In this document: piece by piece, positions 28,591 to 46,253 of the stretch
How positions within the stretch are numbered: the first letter of the stretch is position 1
Layout of the letters: each line of letters begins with the position of its first letter
Assembly (NCBI GenBank): GCA_014193115.1
Contig: BJHQ01000005.1
Span: 50,982-114,981, forward strand
Source of the DNA: Planctomycetota bacterium
Lineage (GTDB): Bacteria > Planctomycetota > UBA11346
Direction of reading: 5' to 3'
DNA length: 64,000 bases
Translations under genes and position numbers: made by a program
Notes under the pieces: model-generated
Told to the model about the DNA's origin: nothing
The model's database searches: none
What the model saw: the letters and a program-made list of their open reading frames with translations, nothing else

Positions 28591-29247
28591 GTGCGCCACC
28601 TGCTGGTCATCACGCTGCCATGGATGCTGGCTGCGGCAGATCCGCCGCCCGATCCGCCGCATCTCATCCTGGCCCGCTCGCTGGTGGCGACCATTGCCGA
28701 TGCCGACAACACCTATGTCGGCGGCCCAGCCCGCATCACCTGGCCCGAGCCGGGCAGACGTGCGTCGAACGCCAGCGTCTGCTCGTCATTCCTGGTGGCG
28801 ACCCTGCAGCGTGCCTATGCCCTGCCCGATGGCCTGATCCGCGAACGCTTTGGCGAACGCTGGCCCGAAGCCGACGAATGCTGCGCCGCCATCCGCGGCG
28901 GTCGCGGATTCCGCCAGCGGCAACGCCTCGACCAGGTCCGGCCAGGCGATGTCATCGCGATTGACTATCAGAGCGCCAAGCGCATCCCGACCGGTCATGT
29001 CCTGTTCGTCGATGCCCTGCCCGAACGCCGTGCGGATGGCACGTTCACGGTGAACATCATCGATTCCACTGGTTCTCCCCATGGCCCAGAAGATCAACGC
29101 GGGTCCGATGGCGGAGCGGGCCGCGGCGCCATCCGACTGCGCTGCGACACGACGGGCCAAATCAACGCCTACGCCTGGAGCCCATCCTCGAACCATTGGC
29201 ATAGCGTGACAGAACGCCCGGTCCTGCTGGCGGTGGTGACACCCTGA
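28591..29247 (+). CDS. Hypothetical secreted protein with a possible CHAP/NlpC-P60-like Cys...His signature; GTG start
   Basis: Signal peptide VRHLLVITLPWMLAAA. Cys in ASVCSSFLVATL and a downstream PGDVIAIDY....TGHVLFVD, resembling the papain-fold amidase Cys/His arrangement. Confidence 0.4.
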   Translation: MRHLLVITLPWMLAAADPPPDPPHLILARSLVATIADADNTYVGGPARITWPEPGRRASNASVCSSFLVATLQRAYALPDGLIRERFGERWPEADECCAAIRGGRGFRQRQRLDQVRPGDVIAIDYQSAKRIPTGHVLFVDALPERRADGTFTVNIIDSTGSPHGPEDQRGSDGGAGRGAIRLRCDTTGQINAYAWSPSSNHWHSVTERPVLLAVVTP

Positions 29248-29408
29248 GCCGATCCGCCCACGATTTCCGCAGGAAATCGAGCGCCGGCCAAGGCCGGGGG
29301 GCGGAGCAGGCGCCGCCGCAGGCGGCAGCAGGCCAAAGGCCTGCGACCTGCACAGCGCGGAGCGAAGCGGAGCTGGACGGCCCAACGGGCCGTGGGGGCG
29401 AAGTCCCC
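29248..29408. repeat. Copy A of a ~160-bp direct repeat containing the hairpin/palindrome ATTTCCGCAGGAAAT
   Basis: gccgatccgcccacgatttccgcaggaaatcgagcgcc...ggcggagcaggcgccgccgcaggcggcagcaggccaaaggcctgcgacctgc...gagctggacggcccaacgggccgtgggggcgaagtcccc. About 95% identical to copy B. Confidence 0.85.
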
Positions 29409-29484
29409 AGAAGGAAGGGGTCCCCGGAGCGAAGCGAGAGGGGAATGGCCGTAGGCGGAGCGGTGGGCGGATAGAATCGGCGGA

Positions 29485-29645
29485 GCCGATCCGCCCACGA
29501 TTTCCGCAGGAAATCGAGCGCCGACAAAGGCCGGGGGGCGGAGCAGGCGCCGCCGCAGGCGGCAGCAGGCCAAAGGCCTGCGACCTGCGCAGCGGAGCGA
29601 AGCGGAGCTGGACGGCCCAACGGGCCGTGGGGGCCGAAGCCCCCA
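29485..29645. repeat. Copy B of the ~160-bp direct repeat, ending 8 bp from the 3' end of tRNA-Leu
   Basis: Near-identical to 29248..29408. Ends in the GGGGGCCGAAGCCCCC hairpin. Confidence 0.85.
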
Positions 29646-29652
29646 AGAAAAC

Positions 29653-29737
29653 TGCCGGGAGCGGGAATCGAACCCGCACGACCATTACGGTCGGGGGATT
29701 TTAAGTCCCCTGCGTCTGCCTGTTCCGCCATCCCGGC
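29653..29737 (-). tRNA. tRNA-Leu (anticodon UAA), type II with a long variable arm; CCA not encoded
   Basis: The minus-strand sequence GCCGGGATGGCGGAACAGGCAGACGCAGGGGACTTAAAATCCCCCGACCGTAATGGTCGTGCGGGTTCGATTCCCGCTCCCGGCA folds as a cloverleaf. The anticodon loop is CTTAAAA and the T-arm is GGTTCGATTCC. Confidence 0.85.
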
Positions 29738-30005
29738 ATCGTTGCCTGCCGCCTGCTCCCGGCGCGGCTGCCTGGCCGCCCATGCGGCGTGCGATTCTGC
29801 GGAAATCAGATCAGGAGGCAATCGCGACGGCTGGTTTTCACATGGGTTCACTCCAGGCAGGCATGCCCGGATGAAATTCGGATCAATTGATGGAAACACG
29901 ATGGATGGAAATGGTGCAGAGGAAATGAGCATGCATTGGTCGTGACCCTATGCGGCCATTGCCCTGGCTGACGGCCACCGCACGTTCAAACCTTCGGAGT
30001 TCAGT

Positions 30006-31454
30006 ATGCCGACGTTGTCGACTGTGGACCATTCCCGACTGCTCGATGCGGTGATCCGGTCGCTGCGGCACCTTTTCAAGATCGGTTCAGGCCGAGGGTA
30101 CCACGGGCTGTTCCCGTCGCTGGTTGATCTCGACAAACCGGCGATGCTCTATGGCATTCCGCCCTGCGTTGGCGGGCAGCGCAGCACTGAGCGCAGTCCG
30201 TTCGGGGTCAATCTGATCCATGATCAGACCACCTTGCGGCTGGCCTATGAGCTGGGACAGCTCTGCGACCAGCCCGATCTCATCCGAGGTGCCGATGCGT
30301 ACCTCAGTTATTTCGCTCGGTATTGCACCAATACGCCGACGGGGCTGTTCCCGTGGGGCGAGCACGCCTTCTGGGATCTGGTCCACCGCAGGCCGGGCGC
30401 GAGCCATTGGCATGTGCCGTGGCTCCAGGACCGTTTCGTGGTCTATGACCATCAGTGCCAGGTCCCAGGCTGGCTGTGGGACAAGCTCTGGCAATTCAAT
30501 CCGGAATGCGTGATCCGTCACGCCGAGGGTCTCGACTGGCATTGGCAGGTGCTGCCCGGACCTGATGGCAAGCGGACCTTCTGCCGGCATGCCTTCGTCG
30601 TCGAGCGGCAGGTCTATGGACCCAATGGCGGCGACGACACCAACATCGGCTACGATTTTCCGCGGCACGCTGGATTTTTTCTCGTCGATCTTGCCCACGT
30701 CTATCGTCACACCCGGCGCGACGACATGCGGGCCAGGTTCGTCGAATGGGCGGAGTACCATTGGCAGCGCCGCGACCGCAACGGTCTGCTGTGGATGCTC
30801 GGTCACCTCGACCCGTGTTGCACTTTGTCGCTCGGTGTCTCGCTGCTCGATGCCACGGAGCTTATCAAGGAGGCTGATCCGGCATTGGCGGCGCTTTGGC
30901 GGGAACGGGCGGAGCGCTACCTGGATGCCTTCCTGACTGGTTCCCACGATCCGGCTGCGGGCCGGGTCACCTGTGATTTCTCTGATGATCCGACCAAGAT
31001 GGAGGCCAGTCGTCTGCCCGTGCTGGTGCCGCGCTGGACCGGCAACGCTTTTGGACCAGCGGCGACCATCGGACTGCTCTGCTTCGCCGCCTGGCGTCAC
31101 ACCGGACGCGCAGATCTCCGCCGATTCGCGCTGGATCTCGCCCAGCACTATGCCGGCCTGGACCTGCCGGAGGCCAATTCCCTGCCCGCCCGGGACGTGG
31201 CCCAGGCTCTGCTGCTTTTCGCGGATGCTTTTGAGCTGACCGGAGAGGAACGCTGGCGCCAGGTCGCCGATCGCTGGCTGGTGCAGGTTGAGAAACGATT
31301 CTTCGATCGGCCGCTGGTCAGGGCTTGGACCGGCCTGGATTATTACGAGTCGCATCAATCTCCTGGATTGCTGCTGATTGCCGTGGCGCGGCTGGTCTCC
31401 CTGCTCGGCCCGGGATTCTCGCGCCCGGTTTCGCCTGACTACACGCGCCGCTGA
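30006..31454 (+). CDS. Hypothetical protein, 482 aa, Trp/His-rich, no confident family
   Basis: Long ORF with coding-like composition, immediately upstream of a sigma-54 activator gene. Confidence 0.55.
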   Translation: MPTLSTVDHSRLLDAVIRSLRHLFKIGSGRGYHGLFPSLVDLDKPAMLYGIPPCVGGQRSTERSPFGVNLIHDQTTLRLAYELGQLCDQPDLIRGADAYLSYFARYCTNTPTGLFPWGEHAFWDLVHRRPGASHWHVPWLQDRFVVYDHQCQVPGWLWDKLWQFNPECVIRHAEGLDWHWQVLPGPDGKRTFCRHAFVVERQVYGPNGGDDTNIGYDFPRHAGFFLVDLAHVYRHTRRDDMRARFVEWAEYHWQRRDRNGLLWMLGHLDPCCTLSLGVSLLDATELIKEADPALAALWRERAERYLDAFLTGSHDPAAGRVTCDFSDDPTKMEASRLPVLVPRWTGNAFGPAATIGLLCFAAWRHTGRADLRRFALDLAQHYAGLDLPEANSLPARDVAQALLLFADAFELTGEERWRQVADRWLVQVEKRFFDRPLVRAWTGLDYYESHQSPGLLLIAVARLVSLLGPGFSRPVSPDYTRR

Positions 31455-38236: not shown

Positions 38237-38375
38237 CCGATCTGGTGTGCCACTCGCGACTGGCCGGTCTGAAATTGCCGCGCTACCGCGGTCGCCATCC
38301 TGGTTAGAACCGCCCAAGCGCAGAGGGCGTTCCGCTCTCGTGCCTCCCGCTGCCGACCGTTCAGGAACCGCCGCC

Positions 38376-41300
38376 ATGGCAATCAACCTTTCACGCATTG
38401 CTCTTCCCGCACTGCTGGCCATTGCGGCCTCGGTACCGGCTATGGCAGGGGATGCAGACATTCCGATCTCGGAGCTGGATGGATCGAGCAAGATGGATTG
38501 GTCGACTTTCAAGCTGCCTGGGGCGGTCTATCCAAAAGAAGGGTTCGGCCCGGGCGGTTGGTACAAAGGCCCGGTCAACAAGAAGCTGTATGATCGGCAG
38601 CATCCCAAGCCGAACGGAGTTGGGATTCGCGCTGGTGGGTATAACGGCGCTTTGGCAGGCGGCGCCCGCGGCCGCTACGAACTGCTCTACATCCGCACCC
38701 GCTTTCCTGATGATATGCGCGAGCAGATCACCGAAATCGGTGCGAACAACCTGATGGAGATCGTCAATCGCTGGTTCGTCGACGCGAGCTACAATACGTT
38801 TTCGATCACCACCACGGTCACGCCCGTGCTGACCATGCCGTATCCGATGCGGTACTATGATACGTATAATCCGGTGCACGATGCCGCTGTTCCGATGTCA
38901 GGTCTGGATGCGTTCACCGCCGATGCCGACACGGCTGCAGCAGTCGCCGGGTATAGTGGAGGATTCGACCTGCGCAGCATTCGTCTGAGTGGTTTGACCA
39001 CCTGGCCTTTTGGCGGTCTGGGCGGCGGTGGTCGTACCTGGTACAAGACCGACGGAATCGGCCTGTATGTGCACGAGCTCGGCCACGCCATCGGTCTGCC
39101 CCACGCAAACTTCTGGGATACTGCCGGTCGCAGTATTTTCGGCGCAACCGACGCGATTTTCCAAAACTATCGGTACTGCATCGAAAACATCGAATACGGC
39201 GATCCCTGGGATGTCATGGGGAGCGGCCTTAACCGACCAGGCCACTTCAATGTTCTTTTCAAGAACAGCCTGGGCTGGCTGACCGAAGACCATGTGCTCG
39301 ACATCACCGAGAGCACCACATTCCGCATGCATGCATTCGATGTGGACCGTTTGGATTCCGGAAAGATCTATGCGGCCCGGATGTCGAAGCATCCCGGCGA
39401 GTTCACCGATCCGCAGTTCTGGTTTGGCTATCGCAACCGCAAGATCAATCCGACCGGGAACAATGCTCCCTTCCCGCAGTACGCGAATGTCGATTTCATG
39501 CCCCACAGCCTGCAAGTGCACATCAATGCGGCTGATTTCTACACCCAGAAGAACGGAAATGACAATTCTCGCGCTCCCAATGAAGTACTGTTGGATGTGA
39601 CCCCGGGAACGCCTCCGGGACAGAACGATGGCGGTGTCGCTGTTGGGCGCACGTTCAGTGATCCCGCTGGCAATTTCCATGTGACGGTGGTCGATGAGGT
39701 GAACAGCGAACCGAATGCCCTGGATGTGGTGGTCAAGCGCGGAGACTTCACAAGCAATCGTCCGCCGATGGTCAGCATCGAGCCGGTCGGCGCCACCTGG
39801 ACTCCCGGCAAGCCGTTGCTGGTGACGTATCCTTATAGCGCCACCACACAGATCGCCGCTGATTTCTCTGACCTCGTGAAGTTCAAGGCCACAGCCAGCG
39901 ATCCGGACGGCGACGCCCTGGCCTATTACTGGGAATTCGGCGACTGGAAATTCGCCTCGAAGAATTCAGACCAGATCAGCTACGCCTATCCGAAGTCCAG
40001 CGTACCGTTGATCACTCCCGGAAATGGCAACGTCCTGATCTATGACCCTGCGCAGAAAGGCCCGCGCGGCCAGTTGTTCACCGTGCGCTGCACCGTGACC
40101 GACATGAAGGGTGGGATCGCCATCGCGGAATTCCCGGTCAACGTCGGCATGAAGGAGTTCCCAGCGTTCGATGCTGCCGATACCGGTGGCCGCTTCCGTA
40201 CCAACATCCGCGGTCGGATCCTGGACCAGGCCGGCAAGCCGGTGGTCGGAGTGCGGGTGACCGCCCAGGGGCCGATTACTGTCTACGCCTACTCGGACTC
40301 GGATGGATATTACCTGTTGTCCGGCCTGATTCCGAACCAAGGCTACGTGTTCAGCCCAGTCAAAGAAGGCTTCAACTTCAATGGCAAGGATAACGCCCAG
40401 GCATTGACCGATAGCGTGGCATCGTCCAGTCCTATCACGGTCCCCGCTGGACGGGATCTGAACGATTTCAATTTAATCGCCCGCAAACGGCATGAAGTTT
40501 ATATTGATACTTTGGCGGCAACATGGAACGACGCGAATCTCAATGGCCAGGTGGATGGGGGTGAGGTCACCCCAATCCTGACCGATGGTAAGGTAACCAT
40601 CATCGACCAGATCGCAGAACCGGCGACCGGGAAGGTTCCGGTGATTTTCCGGGTCCGCCGCGAAGGTCCGGCAAAGCATGTGAAGAGCTATGATCGGGAT
40701 TATGAGATCACCGAAGACTTCAAGGATAATTGGCTCTGCGTTCGTTTGTACACCGGTGGCGGGACTGCGACTAAGGATGACGTCGATTACGACCTGTGGA
40801 CCACGTTTCTCGACATGCCCTTCCGGCTTTCCCAGCCGACCTTTATTGGCGGTGTTAGACAGCCGACGAATCACTCCGAATTCAAGACTTATTCCGGTCG
40901 TCCACCATTGCTGAATGATACCAATCCCAATGTGGAATCAGGAACCGTGACGGTGGTGAATCCTGAGAAGCCCACAGCCATTCGTACGCACGATTCTTTT
41001 CCAGCTAGAGGAGCTCCGCCTGACTACGCCACCGGGAATCAAGCGGACCGCTACGTAGTCATCCGCGGTACGATCAACTTGCCCGGCATTGGCATCAGCA
41101 GCAGGCCGGATGGAAGTTTTGTCTATCCGGAAACGAACGGTCTTGGCGAGACCTACACCGACATCGTGGCCGTGGTCAATGCCGACTCGGTGGCTGAAAA
41201 CCCCGAGACCATCTCGATCATGATCCCGCACAGCCCGGATTATTTTGCTGCGAAATGCGTTGCGAGCGTCAAGGTGATCAGCCACCCGAGCAACGGGCTG

Positions 41301-44300
41301 GTGCCCACGCCAACCGTCTCTGCTGCAGGCGGATCAGCCTATGAATCGGGAAGCTCCAACGGCCAGTTCGTTTTCTATCGCAGTGCTGCCGGTGATATCA
41401 CCCAAAGTTTGACGGTACATTTCGCGCTCTCGGGCACAGCGGTCTATGGCAAGGATTATTCGATCCCCCTGACGCCACCAGTGACCTTTGACAGCGTCAA
41501 TTCACGATACACCGGTTCGATTGTCATTCCTGCCGGTATCGCATCGGTAAAACTGCCTGTGTACGCCATTCCCGACAACGTCCGCGATCCCAATGAGGTC
41601 GTCTCTCTGACCATTTTGGATGGTACTGGATACGTTGCCGGCAGCGGGGCGCAGATAGTGATCGTCGAAGACGACCTGCCCCAAGTTTGGGTGGTCAACA
41701 CCGGCGGCATTGCCCGCGAAAGCGTACTGGCAAATGCGAGTGGAACTCCAGGCGCGCCGGCCAACGGCCAGTTCAGTATCATCCGATTCGGATCCCTCGA
41801 CGAGGATCTTCCGGTGAAGGTCAAGTTCAGTGGATCTGCCACCTATCTCGATGATTACACCCCGCAGGTGACCGAGGTGTCGAACCTGAAATCGACCACC
41901 CGCACGTTGACGGAAACTAATGATTTCGTGACCATTGCCGCCGGCGACACCACGGTGGTCGTCACGATCAAGCCGGTGAACGACGCCACTGCGGCTGAGG
42001 GTGACGAATTTGTCAACGTCACCATCGAGAAATCCTCAACGTATAATACGGTCAATCCGGCCTTGGCCGACCTGGTCATCCAGGACTCGTCGCTGCCCGA
42101 TGTCACCCTGTCGATCACCCCGGGTTTCGGCACGAATCTGAATGAAAATCAGCAGACCAAACTGCGTTTCCAACGGTATCGCGGCAACATCAACAATTCC
42201 CTGCTGATCCGTTACCTGGTTAGCGGTAGTGCTGACAATGGCTATGACTACACCATTGACACCGGCAGCGTCGGATTCGGCGAAGCACTGATTCCCGATG
42301 GCCAGACCATAACCGACATCTCCTTCAATGTTGCTGAGGACATCATCCGCGAAGACCCGGAATTGATCAGCATTATTCTGATTCCGCAATCGACCTATAA
42401 CGTCGATCTGGCCAGCGACGATGCCCAGCTCGCGATTGTCGCGAATGACTTCAATGGCCAGAAAAATCACTCGTTCAAATTCGACAAACAGACGATCAAA
42501 GTAGTGGAATCCAATGGTACGGCGGACTTCTTCGTCGATGTGGTGCTGAGCTCATCGCCAGCAGGCAATAATGTTTATGCGCCTTTGGACGGAACGCGCA
42601 GCCAGAACAACAAAAATCAGCAGATCTGGGTCGGTTGGGAGGTCATCCAGAACCCGACGTCCGATGTCAATGATGCGACCGGAACCACCGACTTCGTCCT
42701 CGCCAACGGCGTGATGATCTTCGCACCGCAAGAAGACATGCAGAACGGGAATCCGTCGTGGGACCGCAATTCGCCGCCGGACAGTCCAACCCTGTCTGAT
42801 GGAAGTCCGTATAACGTCTATGGCTTTCATGGTCTGAATCCCCGCCCGCCGATCGACTACATCCGGCGCAGCCTGTGGTTCCATGTGGTCGGTGATACCG
42901 ACCCGGAACGGGACGATTCAATTGCTAAAACCGGCGATGAGACGTTCCTCATCCGGCTCAGCGAACGCGCTACGGGTCAGCCCTTGGTCAGCGGCTTGCC
43001 GGTGGCTGGCGATATTTGGGGAGTGGCTCCGACTCCGGCAGTCAGCAATGCGGAACCGCTGACCGAGTGCCGGGTGACGATCATCAATGACGACTCAAGT
43101 GTGATCTCCCTGTCGTCGGATTCGACGACTCTGCCGGAAGGGAACCAGGCCCACCTGACCTTGACCCGGACGGGCAATACGCAAGGCGATGCCACGGTGA
43201 CCTTCGAAATTTCCGGTTCAGCTTCGCCATTCGGTGATTACACGATCACCGGTGCAACCAGGGTCCTCCGCAAGGAAGCGGAAAACAGCCTGTTGTATAC
43301 GGTGACTTTCGTCGGCGACCGGATTGATCCGGTAACGTCGGCTTTGATTCCTGGCGAAACCAGCAAAACCGTAACGCTTGACGTCGCCCTGGACCAGACC
43401 GTGGAACGGGCCGAGACCATTGCGGTCCGGCTCTTGAATGGTCTGTACAATCTTCCCGGTCGTAGTGCCGGTGCTGGCGGAATCGGTCCGGACGATACCG
43501 GCATCTCGCATCCAGTGATCTATCCGGATGTGGACGGCCTGAGCTGGAACCCGCTGGTGCAAAAAGAAACACTGACCACTGGTGCGAAGATCAATCCATC
43601 CGCGTCCTTCGTATCATTGGATATTACCGACTCCAATTTGACCGATCCGGCCGAGCAGGGGACGCTGCCAATCGTCAGCGTTACCGTTGAGGATGGCGTG
43701 GGTTCCGAACCCGATCGCGGCCTTGGGAACATCATCTTCAAGCTCAGCCGCACCGGGGACACCACCAGTTCGTTGACCGTTCCGATCCAGATCAGCAAAA
43801 TGTCCACGGCGACGGTCACAGGGACGAAAGACGGCGACATCGATTTCGAGCGTCCGCCTGTGTCGTTGACGTTCGCTCCGGGAACATCGGATGTCACCGT
43901 CATGGTCCGGGTGGTGGATGACACCAAGCTGGAAGACACCGAGACGGTGATTTTAGGCATTGTGCCGACCGAACAGTTCCGGGCCGGCGATCCGGCCGGA
44001 GCGATTGCCTATATCATCGACGATGAAAGCCCGCCAGCAGTGATCACCATCAAGGCAGTGAAGGATAGTACGAGCGAGACCAGCACCGATCAGCTCGTCT
44101 ATGAGGTCCGACGCAGCCGGGACTTCGTGGCACCGCTGGACGTGATCATCCAGATCACCGGCACAGCGTCGGCTGGGGTCGACTACCTGGTCTCGACGGT
44201 CCCAACGTTGTCACCAGTGACCTTGCCAGGAGTGACTGGGACGTTCTCACTGACCATCCCCGCGGCTCAGGAGACGACGTTGATCACTGCCAATCCGGTC

Positions 44301-46253
44301 GAGGATGTCACGGCAGAAGGTGACGAATCGGTCACAATCGCATTGTTGCCTGACATAAACACGACCAATCCGAATTATGTCGTCGGCCCGATCAACCAGT
44401 CGAGTGCGGTCGGAGTCATCATTGATGATGACGCCCCAAGTGTCTATGTGAGCCGGACGGCCGATGCCAATGAAGAAGGTCAAGTACCTGGATACTTTGC
44501 TGTCAAACGAAGCCTCATCACCAACACTGGCTTGGCGGTAAACCTGACGTGGAGCGGGACTGCCGCATCAGGGGACTATGTGTCGGTTCCCAGTGTGGTC
44601 ACCATCCCGGCAGACCAGAGCGAGGTGACGGTCGGGATCATTCCAGTGAATGATGCGGAAATGGAGATTGATGAGACCGTGATCGTAACTATTGCCACCG
44701 GTAGCGGCTACACGGTTGGCGGTGTGGATGGCAGTGAGACCGCGACCCTGTTGATCCTAGATAATGATCGGCCGCGACTCAGCGTCGGCATCAACCGACC
44801 GATCGGTTACGAAGTACTTGACGGGTCTTCCCCGCCAACGGTGGGCATCGCTGAATTTGTCATCAGCCGGACGGCGAGCTCCGAAGGCCTGGCCTTGGCG
44901 ACGGAAGTGAAGTTCTCCTTGTCGGGAACTGCGGTGGATGGCGCAGACTATGTGCGGATCGTTCCGACCAATTCGGTGATTGGGACGGTGACCTTCTCGG
45001 CCAGCGCTGCGGATGTGTATGTGCCTATCACGCCGATCGACGATGAACTGGTCGAGAACGATGAAACCGTGATCTTAACCCTGGCGGAAGATGTCAATTC
45101 GTACAATCTGACGACCGACCCGAAGAAACGGACTGCCGAGGTGGTTATCAAGAGCGACGACTTGGTGCGCGTTTCAGTGGCGGCGGTACCGAAGTACCTG
45201 GTGAAGACCGGGTGCAATGTGCCAGCGACCTTCGTCTTCACCCGCACCGGCAGCACGGATGGGCGTCTGCGGGTTGAGTTCGTGGTTGACGACTTGGCCG
45301 GTCCACCGTCCACGCTGCCGATCAGCCAATTGGCGCAAAAATTGATCGATTACCGCTTCAAAGTGCCTGGCGGAGTGACGTCGACAGTGGACTTCAATGA
45401 CGGAAGCGACACCGCCACGGTCGAGGTCGAGGCCATTTCGGACCTGACCGAGAAGCAGATCTGGTTGAAGGTCAAGGATCGCGCGGATGGCAGCTATCTG
45501 CCGAAAGTCGGGAAGGAGAAGACCTTTATCACCTTGCTGCCAGCGGGCACGCCGTACGTCACGATCAGCGCGGCGTCAGACAATACCACCGCCGAAGGCA
45601 TCGATACCGGCAAGTTCGTGATCTCCCGTACTGGAAGCTTCAACAACCCGATCACGGTGAATCTGGGTTGGTCGGGCACCGGCAAGATTGATGACGACTA
45701 CACGGTGAGCCTCGGCGGCACAGTCCAGGTCGGTCTGCCGCCCTTTGTGACCATCCCGGCTTCGTTCGGGTTCGTCGATGTGGTGGTCACCGCTGTGACT
45801 GACCAAATTGTCGAAGGTGACGAAACGATCATCTGCACCCTGCTTGACTCCACCGCAAATGATCCGGTGACCGGTAAGCCATTGTATTACCAGGCCTGCT
45901 CGGTGAAGGACACGGTCACCATTACCGATGTGCCGCCGCCGCGCCCACGCATCGTCAGCGAGCCGGTGATCTTCGTTCAACAGGGCTCGGCGCTGAGCTA
46001 CCAAGTGCAAACGGTGGTGGCAGGTGGTCTGCCTGGATTGCCCGCACCAAAATACTATCTGGAGCCGAGCCAGATCGATCTGCCGATCCCCTTGGGCATG
46101 ACGATCGATAGCGGGACGGGACTGCTGAGCTGGTCAGCGGTCACCGGCACCGGCCATCTGCGGGTGAGGGTCCGTACTGAAAATGTGCCCAATAATTCTG
46201 ATTCACAAGACTTGTTGATCTTCATCGTTCCTCCCCCGACCAGCCCGAACTGA
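38376..46253 (+). CDS. Giant secreted protein (~2625 aa) with an N-terminal metzincin-like HEXXHXXGXXH domain, a PKD-like domain, a carboxypeptidase-regulatory-like domain, at least 10 Calx-beta domains and a C-terminal putative Ig domain
   Basis: Signal peptide MAINLSRIALPALLAIAASVPAMAG. YVHELGHAIGLPHANF with DVMGSG. Repeated Calx-beta pattern (F/V)xLSGTA..G.DY...........V.IPAG........PV.D...E.DE.V..T. An AGGAA RBS precedes the start. Confidence 0.8.
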   Translation: MAINLSRIALPALLAIAASVPAMAGDADIPISELDGSSKMDWSTFKLPGAVYPKEGFGPGGWYKGPVNKKLYDRQHPKPNGVGIRAGGYNGALAGGARGRYELLYIRTRFPDDMREQITEIGANNLMEIVNRWFVDASYNTFSITTTVTPVLTMPYPMRYYDTYNPVHDAAVPMSGLDAFTADADTAAAVAGYSGGFDLRSIRLSGLTTWPFGGLGGGGRTWYKTDGIGLYVHELGHAIGLPHANFWDTAGRSIFGATDAIFQNYRYCIENIEYGDPWDVMGSGLNRPGHFNVLFKNSLGWLTEDHVLDITESTTFRMHAFDVDRLDSGKIYAARMSKHPGEFTDPQFWFGYRNRKINPTGNNAPFPQYANVDFMPHSLQVHINAADFYTQKNGNDNSRAPNEVLLDVTPGTPPGQNDGGVAVGRTFSDPAGNFHVTVVDEVNSEPNALDVVVKRGDFTSNRPPMVSIEPVGATWTPGKPLLVTYPYSATTQIAADFSDLVKFKATASDPDGDALAYYWEFGDWKFASKNSDQISYAYPKSSVPLITPGNGNVLIYDPAQKGPRGQLFTVRCTVTDMKGGIAIAEFPVNVGMKEFPAFDAADTGGRFRTNIRGRILDQAGKPVVGVRVTAQGPITVYAYSDSDGYYLLSGLIPNQGYVFSPVKEGFNFNGKDNAQALTDSVASSSPITVPAGRDLNDFNLIARKRHEVYIDTLAATWNDANLNGQVDGGEVTPILTDGKVTIIDQIAEPATGKVPVIFRVRREGPAKHVKSYDRDYEITEDFKDNWLCVRLYTGGGTATKDDVDYDLWTTFLDMPFRLSQPTFIGGVRQPTNHSEFKTYSGRPPLLNDTNPNVESGTVTVVNPEKPTAIRTHDSFPARGAPPDYATGNQADRYVVIRGTINLPGIGISSRPDGSFVYPETNGLGETYTDIVAVVNADSVAENPETISIMIPHSPDYFAAKCVASVKVISHPSNGLVPTPTVSAAGGSAYESGSSNGQFVFYRSAAGDITQSLTVHFALSGTAVYGKDYSIPLTPPVTFDSVNSRYTGSIVIPAGIASVKLPVYAIPDNVRDPNEVVSLTILDGTGYVAGSGAQIVIVEDDLPQVWVVNTGGIARESVLANASGTPGAPANGQFSIIRFGSLDEDLPVKVKFSGSATYLDDYTPQVTEVSNLKSTTRTLTETNDFVTIAAGDTTVVVTIKPVNDATAAEGDEFVNVTIEKSSTYNTVNPALADLVIQDSSLPDVTLSITPGFGTNLNENQQTKLRFQRYRGNINNSLLIRYLVSGSADNGYDYTIDTGSVGFGEALIPDGQTITDISFNVAEDIIREDPELISIILIPQSTYNVDLASDDAQLAIVANDFNGQKNHSFKFDKQTIKVVESNGTADFFVDVVLSSSPAGNNVYAPLDGTRSQNNKNQQIWVGWEVIQNPTSDVNDATGTTDFVLANGVMIFAPQEDMQNGNPSWDRNSPPDSPTLSDGSPYNVYGFHGLNPRPPIDYIRRSLWFHVVGDTDPERDDSIAKTGDETFLIRLSERATGQPLVSGLPVAGDIWGVAPTPAVSNAEPLTECRVTIINDDSSVISLSSDSTTLPEGNQAHLTLTRTGNTQGDATVTFEISGSASPFGDYTITGATRVLRKEAENSLLYTVTFVGDRIDPVTSALIPGETSKTVTLDVALDQTVERAETIAVRLLNGLYNLPGRSAGAGGIGPDDTGISHPVIYPDVDGLSWNPLVQKETLTTGAKINPSASFVSLDITDSNLTDPAEQGTLPIVSVTVEDGVGSEPDRGLGNIIFKLSRTGDTTSSLTVPIQISKMSTATVTGTKDGDIDFERPPVSLTFAPGTSDVTVMVRVVDDTKLEDTETVILGIVPTEQFRAGDPAGAIAYIIDDESPPAVITIKAVKDSTSETSTDQLVYEVRRSRDFVAPLDVIIQITGTASAGVDYLVSTVPTLSPVTLPGVTGTFSLTIPAAQETTLITANPVEDVTAEGDESVTIALLPDINTTNPNYVVGPINQSSAVGVIIDDDAPSVYVSRTADANEEGQVPGYFAVKRSLITNTGLAVNLTWSGTAASGDYVSVPSVVTIPADQSEVTVGIIPVNDAEMEIDETVIVTIATGSGYTVGGVDGSETATLLILDNDRPRLSVGINRPIGYEVLDGSSPPTVGIAEFVISRTASSEGLALATEVKFSLSGTAVDGADYVRIVPTNSVIGTVTFSASAADVYVPITPIDDELVENDETVILTLAEDVNSYNLTTDPKKRTAEVVIKSDDLVRVSVAAVPKYLVKTGCNVPATFVFTRTGSTDGRLRVEFVVDDLAGPPSTLPISQLAQKLIDYRFKVPGGVTSTVDFNDGSDTATVEVEAISDLTEKQIWLKVKDRADGSYLPKVGKEKTFITLLPAGTPYVTISAASDNTTAEGIDTGKFVISRTGSFNNPITVNLGWSGTGKIDDDYTVSLGGTVQVGLPPFVTIPASFGFVDVVVTAVTDQIVEGDETIICTLLDSTANDPVTGKPLYYQACSVKDTVTITDVPPPRPRIVSEPVIFVQQGSALSYQVQTVVAGGLPGLPAPKYYLEPSQIDLPIPLGMTIDSGTGLLSWSAVTGTGHLRVRVRTENVPNNSDSQDLLIFIVPPPTSPN

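What the first reader, a model, noticed from the sequence alone, without database searches (positions are those of the whole stretch)
29248..29830. tRNA-Leu(UAA) flanked by two ~160-bp direct repeats and an inverted partial copy of their palindromic core
Two ~95%-identical 160-bp units (29248..29408 and 29485..29645), spaced 237 bp apart, lie between the stop of a secreted-protein gene and the 3' end of tRNA-Leu. Each unit contains the hairpin ATTTCC-GCAG-GAAAT and ends in the GGGGGCCGAAGCCCCC hairpin. The spacer holds a perfect inverted repeat gtgggcggat...atccgcccac. A partial copy in inverted orientation (gattctgcggaaatcag, ~29797-29815) sits on the 5' side of the tRNA. Candidate explanations are a small-RNA gene duplicated in tandem, a repeated protein-binding operator, a MITE-like element or remnants of integration at a tRNA. 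No integrase is present.
Basis: seen in the sequence. Interest (0 to 1): 0.5.

Follow-up and report, generated by a model that had tools for sequence, protein, structure and literature searches.

The report
Structured mobile repeat beside tRNA-Leu
The two repeats next to the tRNA-Leu gene are copies of a previously undescribed, roughly 185-bp non-coding repeat that is scattered through the genomes of Planctomycetota bacteria, behaves like a miniature transposon, and folds into a strongly conserved three-armed shape; that conserved shape is unusual for such elements.

Summary
Two direct copies (29246-29408 and 29483-29645, 97% identical, 237-nt period) lie between a CDS stop and the 3' end of tRNA-Leu(UAA). 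A decayed inverted fragment lies on the other side of the tRNA.

They are neither unique nor tRNA-specific. Where carriers are named, they are Planctomycetota.

A covariance model built only from the metagenome copies hits window 29443-29534 at 77 bits (E about 1e-16).

The core folds into a three-way junction:
- 96% of cells are paired, with 125 compensatory cells against 29 in shuffles.
- The unpaired loops are invariant.
- Hairpin loops are C-GNA-G on one strand only.

The canonical subfamily (182-189 bp) has 13-bp terminal inverted repeats and 8-9-bp target-site duplications, so it is MITE-like. Neighbouring copies are almost always head-to-tail.

There is no Rfam match and no hit in the searched literature. 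No transposase partner was found, and the reason the fold is conserved is unknown. I class it as a new variant of a known kind, of moderate interest.

The parts
28591..29247 (+). Upstream CDS (218 aa, no Pfam family). Its last codons and its stop codon overlap the start of the truncated repeat unit.
   Evidence: Gene call in L001, ORF list, Pfam scan with no hit.
29236..29248 (+). Possible remnant of the family's 5' terminal inverted repeat (GTGACACCCTGAG, against consensus GTAACWACTCAGG). It contains the CDS stop codon. This is an inference, not tested statistically.
   Evidence: Read from the sequence and compared with the 5' ends listed.
29246..29408 (+). Unit A, a 5'-truncated copy. It lacks P0, the 5' strands of P1 and P2, and the 5' half of P3. 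It keeps the 3' half of P3, P4, the 3' strands of P2 and P1, the extra hairpin module and a P6-like hairpin (GGGGGC-GAA-GTCCCC).
   Evidence: Repeat. Covariance model R1 gives a partial hit at 29225-29297, 19.1 bits, E=0.024.
29417..29444 (+). P0-like hairpin of unit B (TCCCC...GGGGA with a GC-GAA-GC apex).
   Evidence: Sequence. The homologous module occurs in L061 and L062.
29443..29534 (+). Complete three-way-junction core of unit B. P1 is GGCC 29447-29450 with 29529-29532. P2's 3' strand is GCGCC 29518-29522. P3 is 29463-29498 with an inner ATCGGC-GGA-GCCGAT hairpin. P4 is 29498-29516 (CGATTTCC-GCA-GGAAATCG).
   Evidence: R1, built only from JGI copies, scores 77.3 bits, E=1.4e-16. The single-sequence MFE reproduces P1-P4 with both RNA and DNA parameters, z = -4.2 and -5.2.
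29535..29644 (+). 3' part of unit B. It holds an extra hairpin module (GCCGCC-GCA-GGCGGC 29549-29563, GCAGGCC-AAA-GGCCTGC 29565-29581, GCGAAGC 29597-29603), then the P5-like CGGCCC-AAC-GGGCCG 29613-29627 and P6 GGGGGC-CGAA-GCCCCC 29629-29644.
   Evidence: Sequence. The module is shared with L061 and L062 (84-88%) and with L176, L077, L151 and L073. The P5/P6 part is shared with many loci.
29652..29738 (-). tRNA-Leu(UAA), convergent with the repeat units. No CCA is encoded. The 3' trailer is GUUUUCUU followed by the antisense of P6.
   Evidence: ARAGORN, Rfam RF00005 at 56.7 bits.
29745..29807 (-). Decayed partial copy in inverted orientation (P4 plus about 45 nt of the 3' part), directly upstream of the tRNA.
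   Evidence: Local alignment score 38, against a maximum of 31 in 300 shuffles and 33 in 234 control segments. R1 does not detect it.

Best explanation
The repeats are a local head-to-tail array of a non-coding, multi-copy repeat family that is dispersed in Planctomycetota genomes. The array holds one 5'-truncated unit, one complete unit and, across the tRNA, a decayed inverted fragment.

Canonical family members are 182-189 bp. They are bounded by 13-bp terminal inverted repeats (5'-GTAACWACTCAGG ... CCTGAGCWGTYAC-3') and flanked by 8-9-bp duplications of the target. [quoted passage not shown]

What sets the family apart from ordinary MITEs is its interior. On one strand (the window's plus strand) it folds into a three-way junction: P1, an internal loop, P2, then arms P3 and P4. 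GC hairpins flank the junction. The stems change by compensatory substitutions. The internal loop (GCCGA / GACAAA) and the junction bases stay invariant. Nearly all hairpin loops are C-GNA-G.

Once inserted, units multiply and shrink locally by unit-level or part-unit duplication and deletion. That process gives head-to-tail arrays like the one here.

The position next to tRNA-Leu is incidental. The elements settle in any intergenic space, in either orientation.

Shown:
- family membership of the window copies;
- dispersal of the family;
- the covariation-supported fold;
- strand asymmetry;
- terminal repeats and target duplications in one subfamily;
- array copy-number polymorphism.

Inferred:
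- transposition by a DDE-type enzyme;
- that the single-stranded fold (ssDNA or RNA) is recognised by some factor;
- that the window array arose by local duplication after its ends decayed.
For: Membership: R1, built from 40 JGI copies only, hits window 29443-29534 at 77.3 bits, E=1.4e-16, and the truncated unit at 19.1 bits.

Dispersal:
- 154 core hits in 122 loci.
- 122 hits at E<1e-5 in 98 sources, 16 of them cut by contig ends.
- ENA contigs L061 and L062 hold copies in other gene contexts.
- NCBI assembly contig L183 has 5 copies in 13.9 kb.
- Proteins on one carrier contig (L085, WGS set JFJP01) are named Planctomycetota by NCBI, as is the window's own protein.

Fold:
- RNAalifold independently predicts P1-P4.
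- 96% of cells are paired.
- 125 double-change cells, against 29 +/- 4 in shuffles (0 of 500 reach the observed value).
- Slid controls give 31-41% paired.
- One variant in L183 has a different but still complementary P3 stem.

Invariant unpaired bases.

Strand asymmetry:
- C-GNA-G against C-TNC-G loops, 51:3 and 106:1.
- In P2, G.T 45 against A.C 12.

Mobility:
- Terminal inverted repeats and flanking 8-9-bp duplications: L126 9/9; L110, L102, L138 and L158 7/8; L150 10/10.
- The 8-mer at offsets 9-11 after P6 recurs upstream in 13-17% of 53 single copies, against about 5% of mismatched pairs. Seven of those recurrences lie at -46 to -50 from the core start.
- A group II intron maturase ORF is interrupted by a copy in P0099 but is not interrupted at that position in the related fragment P0098.

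Arrays:
- 24 of 25 neighbouring pairs are direct.
- The same tRNA array carries 6 half-units in one sample and 4 in another.

Not tRNA-specific: only the window, L083/L091 and the three tRNA-Glu loci are tRNA-adjacent.

Not previously described, as far as tested: no Rfam match for the window or for canonical copies, and no hit in the searched literature.
Against: - The window units have no clear terminal inverted repeats or target duplication. Only a subset of the family does: 18 of 97 copies match a strict 5' motif.
- No autonomous element with the same ends was found in about 760 kb of loci, and no recurrent neighbouring transposase.
- A DDE-type cut-and-paste mechanism does not explain why an elaborate internal fold and invariant loops are conserved.
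- Copy number in the window's own genome is unknown. There is only one locus in 64 kb.
- P3 invariance and its GNA loop are partly imposed by the search pattern used.
- Gene orientation statistics rest on crude ORF calls, which mis-call the window's own neighbour.
- Copies are related by descent, so the counts are not independent events.
Confidence: 0.68

Rival explanations
1. A family of genuine small-RNA genes, or a structured RNA module carried as a passenger. The three-way junction would be a functional RNA, for example a protein-binding or sponge RNA. The tandem units would be gene duplicates, and the transposon-like ends would only be the vehicle.
For: - Strong covariation, invariant internal loop and junction bases, and tolerance of G.U-type wobble on one strand.
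- Tandem sheared G.A motifs next to P2 and inside P4 are typical of RNA-protein sites (read from the alignment).
- The sense strand in the window equals the strand of the upstream CDS, so the units could be transcribed as its 3' UTR.
Against: - No conserved sequence lies upstream of the element.
- No sigma-70-like promoter or intrinsic terminator is found in the window region.
- Orientation relative to flanking genes looks random, and copies also sit between divergent genes.
- All five hairpin types carry 3-nt GNA loops closed by C-G. That is the hallmark of very stable DNA minihairpins (PMC13037366, PMC3201870), not the GNRA/UNCG tetraloops usual in RNAs.
- No expression data are available.
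Confidence: 0.17
2. A REP/BIME-type element mobilised as single-stranded DNA by a RAYT or IS200-like HUH tyrosine transposase. P3 (GTGG + palindrome) would be the REP.
For: - The structure is strand-specific.
- GNA minihairpin loops are abundant.
- A GTGG tetranucleotide sits at the foot of P3, resembling the GT[AG]G tag.
- The location is intergenic.
Against: - Units are about 165-185 nt with a three-way junction, not 20-40-bp palindromes.
- Neighbours are head-to-tail in 24 of 25 cases. REPs are mostly head-to-head or tail-to-tail dimers and head-to-tail is rare (PMC3733652).
- Target duplications of 8-9 bp are not made by HUH Y1 enzymes (own knowledge).
- tblastn with recalled RAYT and IS608 TnpA sequences found nothing in 758 kb, which is a weak test.
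Confidence: 0.07
3. Remnants of integration (att sites) of a mobile element at tRNA-Leu, or a locus-specific regulatory operator for the tRNA or its neighbours.
For: - The repeats are close to a tRNA gene, a classic integration target.
- Repeated copies lie on both sides of the tRNA.
- Five family loci sit just 3' of tRNA genes, always convergent with them.
Against: - The repeats contain no tRNA sequence.
- There is no integrase within +/-10 kb.
- More than 110 family copies are not near a tRNA.
- The P4 palindrome sequence is not conserved across the family, only its pairing is.
- Three of the tRNA-adjacent loci are the same tRNA-Glu locus in related genomes.
Confidence: 0.03
4. The tandem arrangement in the window is an assembly artefact: two dispersed copies collapsed or mis-joined by the assembler.
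For: - Two other assemblies of the same population end inside copy B.
- 16 of the 122 family hits are cut by contig ends.
- L162 compared with L110 shows a switch of flank exactly at the element.
Against: - The two copies differ at several positions and are joined by unique sequence that is itself the 5' half of a natural unit.
- Head-to-tail arrays with similar periods are seen in many independent assemblies.
- Contigs that end inside copy B are what a real repeat would also produce.
Confidence: 0.05

Closest known systems
Bacterial MITEs (for example Correia/NEMIS elements of Neisseria, bcr1 of Bacillus cereus)
   Same: Non-coding, about 100-200 bp and multi-copy. They have terminal inverted repeats and short target-site duplications, sit in intergenic regions in either orientation, and can extend or terminate neighbouring ORFs.
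   Different: The interior is a covariation-supported three-way junction with invariant loops. It is not just a long hairpin made by the inverted ends. Many copies lack the ends and occur as head-to-tail arrays or part-units. No parent insertion sequence is known.
BOX elements of Streptococcus pneumoniae (boxA-(boxB)n-boxC) and enterobacterial ERIC/IRU repeats
   Same: Modular, mosaic, structured intergenic repeats with variable numbers of tandem sub-units and no coding capacity. No dedicated transposase is known. (The BOX and ERIC features are from own knowledge.)
   Different: The sequence and the phylum differ. This family has a three-way junction, clear strand asymmetry (GNA loops) and, in one subfamily, terminal inverted repeats with target duplications.
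REP/BIME elements with RAYT transposases (GTAG and CGTC superfamilies, PMC3733652)
   Same: GC-rich, hairpin-forming, abundant and intergenic. Their structure matters in single-stranded form. A GTGG sits at the foot of one hairpin.
   Different: The units are five times longer and branched. Neighbours are head-to-tail, not inverted dimers. Target duplications are present. No RAYT was found.
Rhodopirellula-1 and Rhizobiales-1 motifs (Weinberg et al. 2010, PMC2864571)
   Same: Multi-copy structured motifs found by comparative genomics and flagged as possible repeats. They are not in Rfam. Rhodopirellula-1 occurs in Planctomycetes.
   Different: Both are single hairpins. The Rhodopirellula-1 sequences (AACAA..GAU..GAAC...GUUAUC..GUU) bear no resemblance to this element.
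IS66-family insertion sequences (lead from memory only)
   Different: Beyond GTAA the ends do not resemble the usual GTAAGCG. No IS66-type transposase was seen near any copy. This was not tested.

Membership tests
The Planctomycetota three-way-junction repeat family defined here (model R1) | A match to a covariance model built without the window sequence. | tested here: met
   77.3 bits, E=1.4e-16 at 29443-29534. The family range is 66-118 bits.
MITE | Terminal inverted repeats. | tested here: inconclusive
   Canonical relatives have GTAACWACTCAGG / CCTGAGCWGTYAC, matching at 9-10 of 13 positions. The window units have only a possible 5' remnant at 29236-29248.
MITE | Target-site duplication of fixed length. 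| tested here: inconclusive
   Met for relatives, with 8-9 bp in at least 8 loci and enrichment over mismatched controls. It cannot be assessed for the window array, because its ends are truncated or decayed.
MITE | Non-coding, small, multi-copy and dispersed. | tested here: met
   154 hits in 122 loci. All six frames are open, but no protein family is encoded.
MITE | A related autonomous insertion sequence with the same ends. | tested here: not met
   No orphan end motifs flanking a transposase in the fetched loci. The test is limited to about 0.76 Mb.
REP/BIME (RAYT-associated) | A 20-40-bp single imperfect palindrome with a GTAG or CGTC tag. | tested here: not met
   The unit is about 165-185 nt and branched. 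Only a GTGG at the foot of P3 resembles the tag.
REP/BIME (RAYT-associated) | Predominantly inverted (head-to-head or tail-to-tail) dimers. | tested here: not met
   24 direct pairs against 1 inverted within 1.5 kb. The criterion comes from PMC3733652.
REP/BIME (RAYT-associated) | An associated RAYT (Y1 HUH) gene flanked by the repeats. | tested here: inconclusive
   No tblastn hit with recalled YafM and IS608 TnpA sequences in 758 kb. Complete genomes were not available.
Any Rfam 15 RNA family | A covariance-model match. | tested here: not met
   In the whole window at gathering thresholds only the tRNA matches. No credible non-tRNA match in 29100-30000 at E<=10. No hit at E<=1 in 10 loci holding canonical copies.
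Integrase att site at a tRNA gene | Direct repeats that include the 3' part of the tRNA, with an integrase gene adjacent. | tested here: not met
   The repeats stop 7 nt before the tRNA and share no sequence with it. Gene calls within +/-10 kb include no integrase.
Intrinsic (Rho-independent) terminator | A GC hairpin followed by a U-tract. | tested here: not met
   No site on either strand in 29000-30100. After P6 the sense strand is A-rich, not T-rich.
Integron attC site | RYYYAAC / GTTRRRY core sites at the ends, in arrays next to intI. | tested here: not met
   The consensus contains no GTTRRRY or RYYYAAC. Copies are dispersed among housekeeping genes.

The most novel reading that the evidence does not exclude
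The three-way-junction core, with its invariant GCCGA/GACAAA internal loop, tandem G.A pairs and C-GNA-G minihairpins, is a new functional nucleic-acid module. It could be a new class of structured RNA, or a single-stranded-DNA recognition structure for an unknown enzyme. Either way it has colonised Planctomycetota genomes on a transposon-like vehicle. Its conserved fold would then reflect a molecular function or a mobilisation mechanism not yet described for bacterial repeats.
Probability: 0.3. Interest if true: 0.78.

Novelty: new variant of a known kind. Interest (0 to 1): 0.6.

Why it matters
Planctomycetota genomes are large and poorly annotated, and I found no description of their repeat content. 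This family has three practical consequences:
- It breaks assemblies: 16 of the 122 hits end at contig ends.
- It generates spurious proteins in public databases, because all six frames are open.
- It remodels gene ends.

A model of the family lets annotators mask it.

Scientifically, the family pairs transposon hallmarks with a fold that is conserved by compensatory change and has invariant unpaired bases. Ordinary MITEs do not need such a fold. This gives a concrete, testable handle on what recognises these structures, whether they act as ssDNA or RNA, and how tandem arrays form.

Tried and rejected
1. The 19-mer palindrome as a probe. CGATTTCCGCAGGAAATCG found 56 loci in species-representative genomes of many phyla. 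None has the unit or matches the model. There is no shared neighbouring protein and no tRNA link.

2. The orthologous locus through the downstream 482-aa protein. The nearest relative (69% identity) sits on a non-syntenic 2.3-kb contig with no tRNA.

3. Repeating the look-up with P0001 returned the same three contigs, so that call was wasted.

4. Literature string searches for the hairpin and for P3 found nothing. Keyword searches for Planctomycete repeats found nothing relevant. Rhodopirellula-1 was checked and is different.

5. RAYT/IS200 tblastn with sequences recalled from memory found nothing. All-against-all clustering of neighbouring ORFs found only translations of the repeat itself.

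6. Viral contigs and plasmids gave no hits.

7. Orientation relative to genes showed no bias, but my GC3-based gene caller mis-calls the window's own upstream gene, so this is weak.

8. Comparing orthologous copies to look for selection (L110, L156, L162) showed only identical sequence and then a flank switch.

9. DNA for the maturase-interrupting copy (P0098, P0099) could not be fetched.

10. The weak model hit at 41629-41726 lies inside a 2668-aa ORF and is treated as chance.

11. A first automatic test for terminal repeats and target duplications missed the ends, because every copy shares them. They were found by reading the flanks.
Full report
**The observation.**
The window's plus strand carries two direct copies, 29246-29408 and 29483-29645.
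- The repeat finder reports 97% identity over the first 112 nt and 92% over the last 52 nt, with spacing 237/235.
- BLAST gives 96.8% over 154 nt and finds no further copy in the 64-kb window.
- The pairwise alignment shows one 2-nt indel.

tRNA-Leu(UAA) lies at 29652-29738 on the minus strand.
- Only copy B ends in GGGGGCCGAAGCCCCC. Copy A has GGGGGCGAAGTCCCC.
- The right arm of the "spacer" inverted repeat already belongs to copy B.

The inverted partial copy upstream of the tRNA is real and longer than described. The minus strand of about 29745-29807 aligns to about 65 nt of the unit with score 38. The maximum was 31 in 300 shuffles and 33 in 234 other segments of the window.

**Source of the window.**
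The window is part of an ENA metagenome scaffold. Its 482-aa downstream protein is named by NCBI as coming from "Planctomycetota bacterium" (locus tag LBMAG53). Two other assemblies of the same population stop inside copy B.

The gene caller's 256-aa "protein" over the repeats and the tRNA is spurious.

Rfam finds only the tRNA. No sigma-70-type promoter or hairpin-plus-T-run terminator is present on either strand.

**A false lead.**
The 19-nt palindrome of the unit occurs in 56 loci of unrelated genomes. None has the unit or matches the later model.

**The lead that worked.**
The real lead came from translating the spurious ORF and searching proteins. Two ENA contigs, L061 and L062, carry homologous hairpin arrays between unrelated genes.

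They also showed that the AT-containing palindrome is the variable part.

The hits come from many projects and often sit at contig ends. Proteins on one carrier contig (L085) are named Planctomycetota by NCBI. An NCBI assembly contig (L183) has five copies in 13.9 kb.

**Anatomy of the family.**
The consensus reads, in order:
- a GC hairpin, P0;
- the 5' strand of P1 (CGGSC);
- GCCGA;
- the 5' strand of P2;
- GG;
- P3 (TGGGCGGAT-ATAMA-ATGGGC-GNA-GCCCAT-CCGCCCA);
- P4 (typically CGGTTTCG-GA-GC-GNA-GC-GA-CGAAACCG; in the window the short form CGATTTCC-GCA-GGAAATCG);
- A;
- the 3' strand of P2;
- GACAAA;
- the 3' strand of P1;
- hairpins P5 and P6.

RNAalifold predicted the P1-P4 three-way junction unaided.

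On a 40-sequence core alignment:
- 96% of cells pair.
- 18 of 33 pairs show changes on both sides.
- 125 cells are compensatory, against 29 +/- 4 in shuffles (0 of 500 reach the observed value).
- Sliding the partners drops pairing to 31-41%.

P3's own sequence, and the G and A of its GNA loop, were fixed by my search pattern, so their invariance carries no weight. A diverged copy in L183 has a different but still complementary P3 stem.

The unpaired GCCGA, GACAAA, GG and A bases were not imposed by the pattern, and they are 85-100% conserved.

**The window copies belong to the family.**
A covariance model built only from the JGI copies scores window 29443-29534 at 77.3 bits, E=1.4e-16. It scores the truncated unit at 29225-29297 at 19.1 bits. 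The family range is 66-118 bits.

The natural parse of the locus is therefore:
- unit A, 5'-truncated, starting in the middle of P3 right at the CDS stop codon;
- unit B, complete;
- tRNA-Leu, convergent;
- a decayed inverted fragment.

The window lineage, like L061 and L062, also carries an extra hairpin module in the 3' part. That module recurs in some JGI copies, sometimes on the other side of the core. The family is therefore mosaic.

The single-sequence folds of the window core reproduce the junction with both RNA and DNA parameters.

**Strand asymmetry.**
- In the regions not constrained by my pattern, hairpin loops are C-GNA-G rather than the complementary C-TNC-G by 51:3 (P0) and 106:1 (P5/P6). 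The middle base varies freely.
- In P2, G.T wobbles outnumber A.C by 45 to 12 over 119 distinct copies.

The conserved structure therefore belongs to one strand, the window's plus strand.

d(GCGNAGC)-type minihairpins with GNA loops closed by C-G are known to be extraordinarily stable in DNA (PMC13037366, PMC3201870). RNAs usually favour GNRA or UNCG tetraloops (own knowledge). This tilts me towards a single-stranded-DNA fold, but it does not exclude RNA.

**Evidence for mobility.**
Reading the flanks of single copies showed that a canonical subfamily, 182-189 bp long, begins with GTAACWACTCAGG and ends with CCTGAGCWGTYAC (9-10 of 13 complementary). The 8-9 nt just outside the two ends are duplicated:
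- L126: TGATCACGG, 9/9.
- L110: GCGAGAT, 7/8.
- L102, L138 and L158: 7/8.
- L150: CGCATGGAAG, 10/10.
- L089 and L177: 6/8.

Statistically, the 8-mer at offsets 9-11 after P6 recurs upstream in 13-17% of 53 single copies, against about 5% of mismatched pairs. Seven of these recurrences fall at -46 to -50 from the core start.

One group II intron maturase fragment is interrupted by a copy, while a related fragment is not interrupted at that position.

These are MITE hallmarks. Against a complete MITE picture:
- No autonomous partner with the same ends was found.
- No recurrent neighbouring transposase was found.
- The window units themselves have no clear ends. The sequence GTGACACCCTGAG at 29236-29248 may be a 5'-end remnant that now supplies the CDS stop codon. 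That is an inference only.

**Arrays.**
Within 1.5 kb, 24 of 25 neighbouring cores are head-to-tail, with periods of 92-94 nt (half-units), 126-164 nt, or 244-363 nt. The same 13-tRNA array sampled in two metagenomes has six copies of a 93-95-nt half-unit in one and four in the other. The window's 237-nt-period array fits this pattern of local duplication and deletion.

**Context.**
Copies lie in all kinds of intergenic regions and in both orientations. L183, for example, has copies between divergent genes. My gene calls are crude, so this is weak evidence.

Only five loci are next to tRNA genes. The element is always convergent with the tRNA there, but three of the five are the same tRNA-Glu locus in related genomes. 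I regard the tRNA-Leu position as incidental.

**Comparison with known elements.**
- Closest kind: bacterial MITEs and modular structured repeats such as BOX and ERIC.
- Not a REP/BIME: the size, branching, head-to-tail arrangement and target duplications all disagree with the criteria in PMC3733652.
- Not an att remnant, an attC site or a terminator.
- Not in Rfam 15.
- Not the Rhodopirellula-1 motif of Weinberg et al. 2010.
- No sequence-string hit in the paper library.
- Ends starting with GTAA plus 8-9-bp duplications recall the IS66 family. That comes from memory and was not tested.

**Verdict.**
The tRNA-integration and operator readings are not supported.
- What is new is a widespread Planctomycetota repeat family that combines transposon-like ends with a three-way junction conserved by compensatory change, invariant loops and strand-specific GNA minihairpins.
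- The function of that fold and the enzyme that moves the element remain unknown.

Noticed in passing
window 29498-29516; loci L004-L059: The 19-mer CGATTTCCGCAGGAAATCG occurs in 56 loci of species-representative genomes from many phyla. Carriers include Rhodobacter/Tabrizicola twin-hairpin repeats, an Oscillospiraceae/Clostridiales multi-copy element, Methanomicrobiales, Acidobacteriota-like long palindromes and Burkholderiaceae. It usually forms the apex of a longer palindrome. By my estimate a random 19-mer would give about 4 hits. None of these loci matches the Planctomycetota family model.
   Followed up: partly
window 29162-29932 (-) = L001 9157-9927: A public gene call of 256 aa spans the repeats and the tRNA and is spurious. 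All six reading frames of the family consensus are free of stops, or nearly so. As a result the element seeds spurious proteins and C-terminal extensions of real proteins in databases (P0080-P0108).
   Followed up: partly
L083 1290-2090 versus L091 1710-2320: The same 13-tRNA gene array, sampled in two metagenomes, differs by six versus four tandem copies of a 93-95-nt half-unit of the element. The half-units lie between tRNA-His and tRNA-Gln.
   Followed up: yes
L162 versus L110/L156: The sequences are identical up to the end of hairpin P6 and unrelated beyond it. This is either recombination between copies or a chimeric assembly at the repeat.
   Followed up: partly
P0098 / P0099 (JGI sample 3300059473): In P0099 a group II intron maturase (GIIM) fragment is interrupted by a copy of the element. 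In P0098 the related fragment continues past that position, and its ORF runs into a copy only after the maturase-like part ends. The DNA could not be fetched.
   Followed up: partly
L183 3000-3900 (NCBI GCA_038231435.1): Three tandem units (142-nt period) plus one inverted, diverged unit fill the divergent intergenic region between recJ and a peptidase M16 gene. This contig shares the RecJ / lipid A acyltransferase neighbourhood with the window.
   Followed up: partly
window 41629-41726 (+): A weak hit of the family model (19.2 bits, E=0.023) lies inside a 2668-aa ORF (38247-46253). It is probably chance.
   Followed up: partly
window 28856-28895 and 29096-29135: A 40-nt direct repeat (73% identical, 240 nt apart) lies inside the upstream CDS. 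It may be an internal protein repeat.
   Followed up: no
family 3' ends (for example L174, L110, L102): The terminal inverted repeats contain TAA (GTAAC) on both strands. A reading frame entering from either side would therefore meet a stop triplet in one of its three phases. The window's upstream CDS appears to stop inside a possible end remnant.
   Followed up: no
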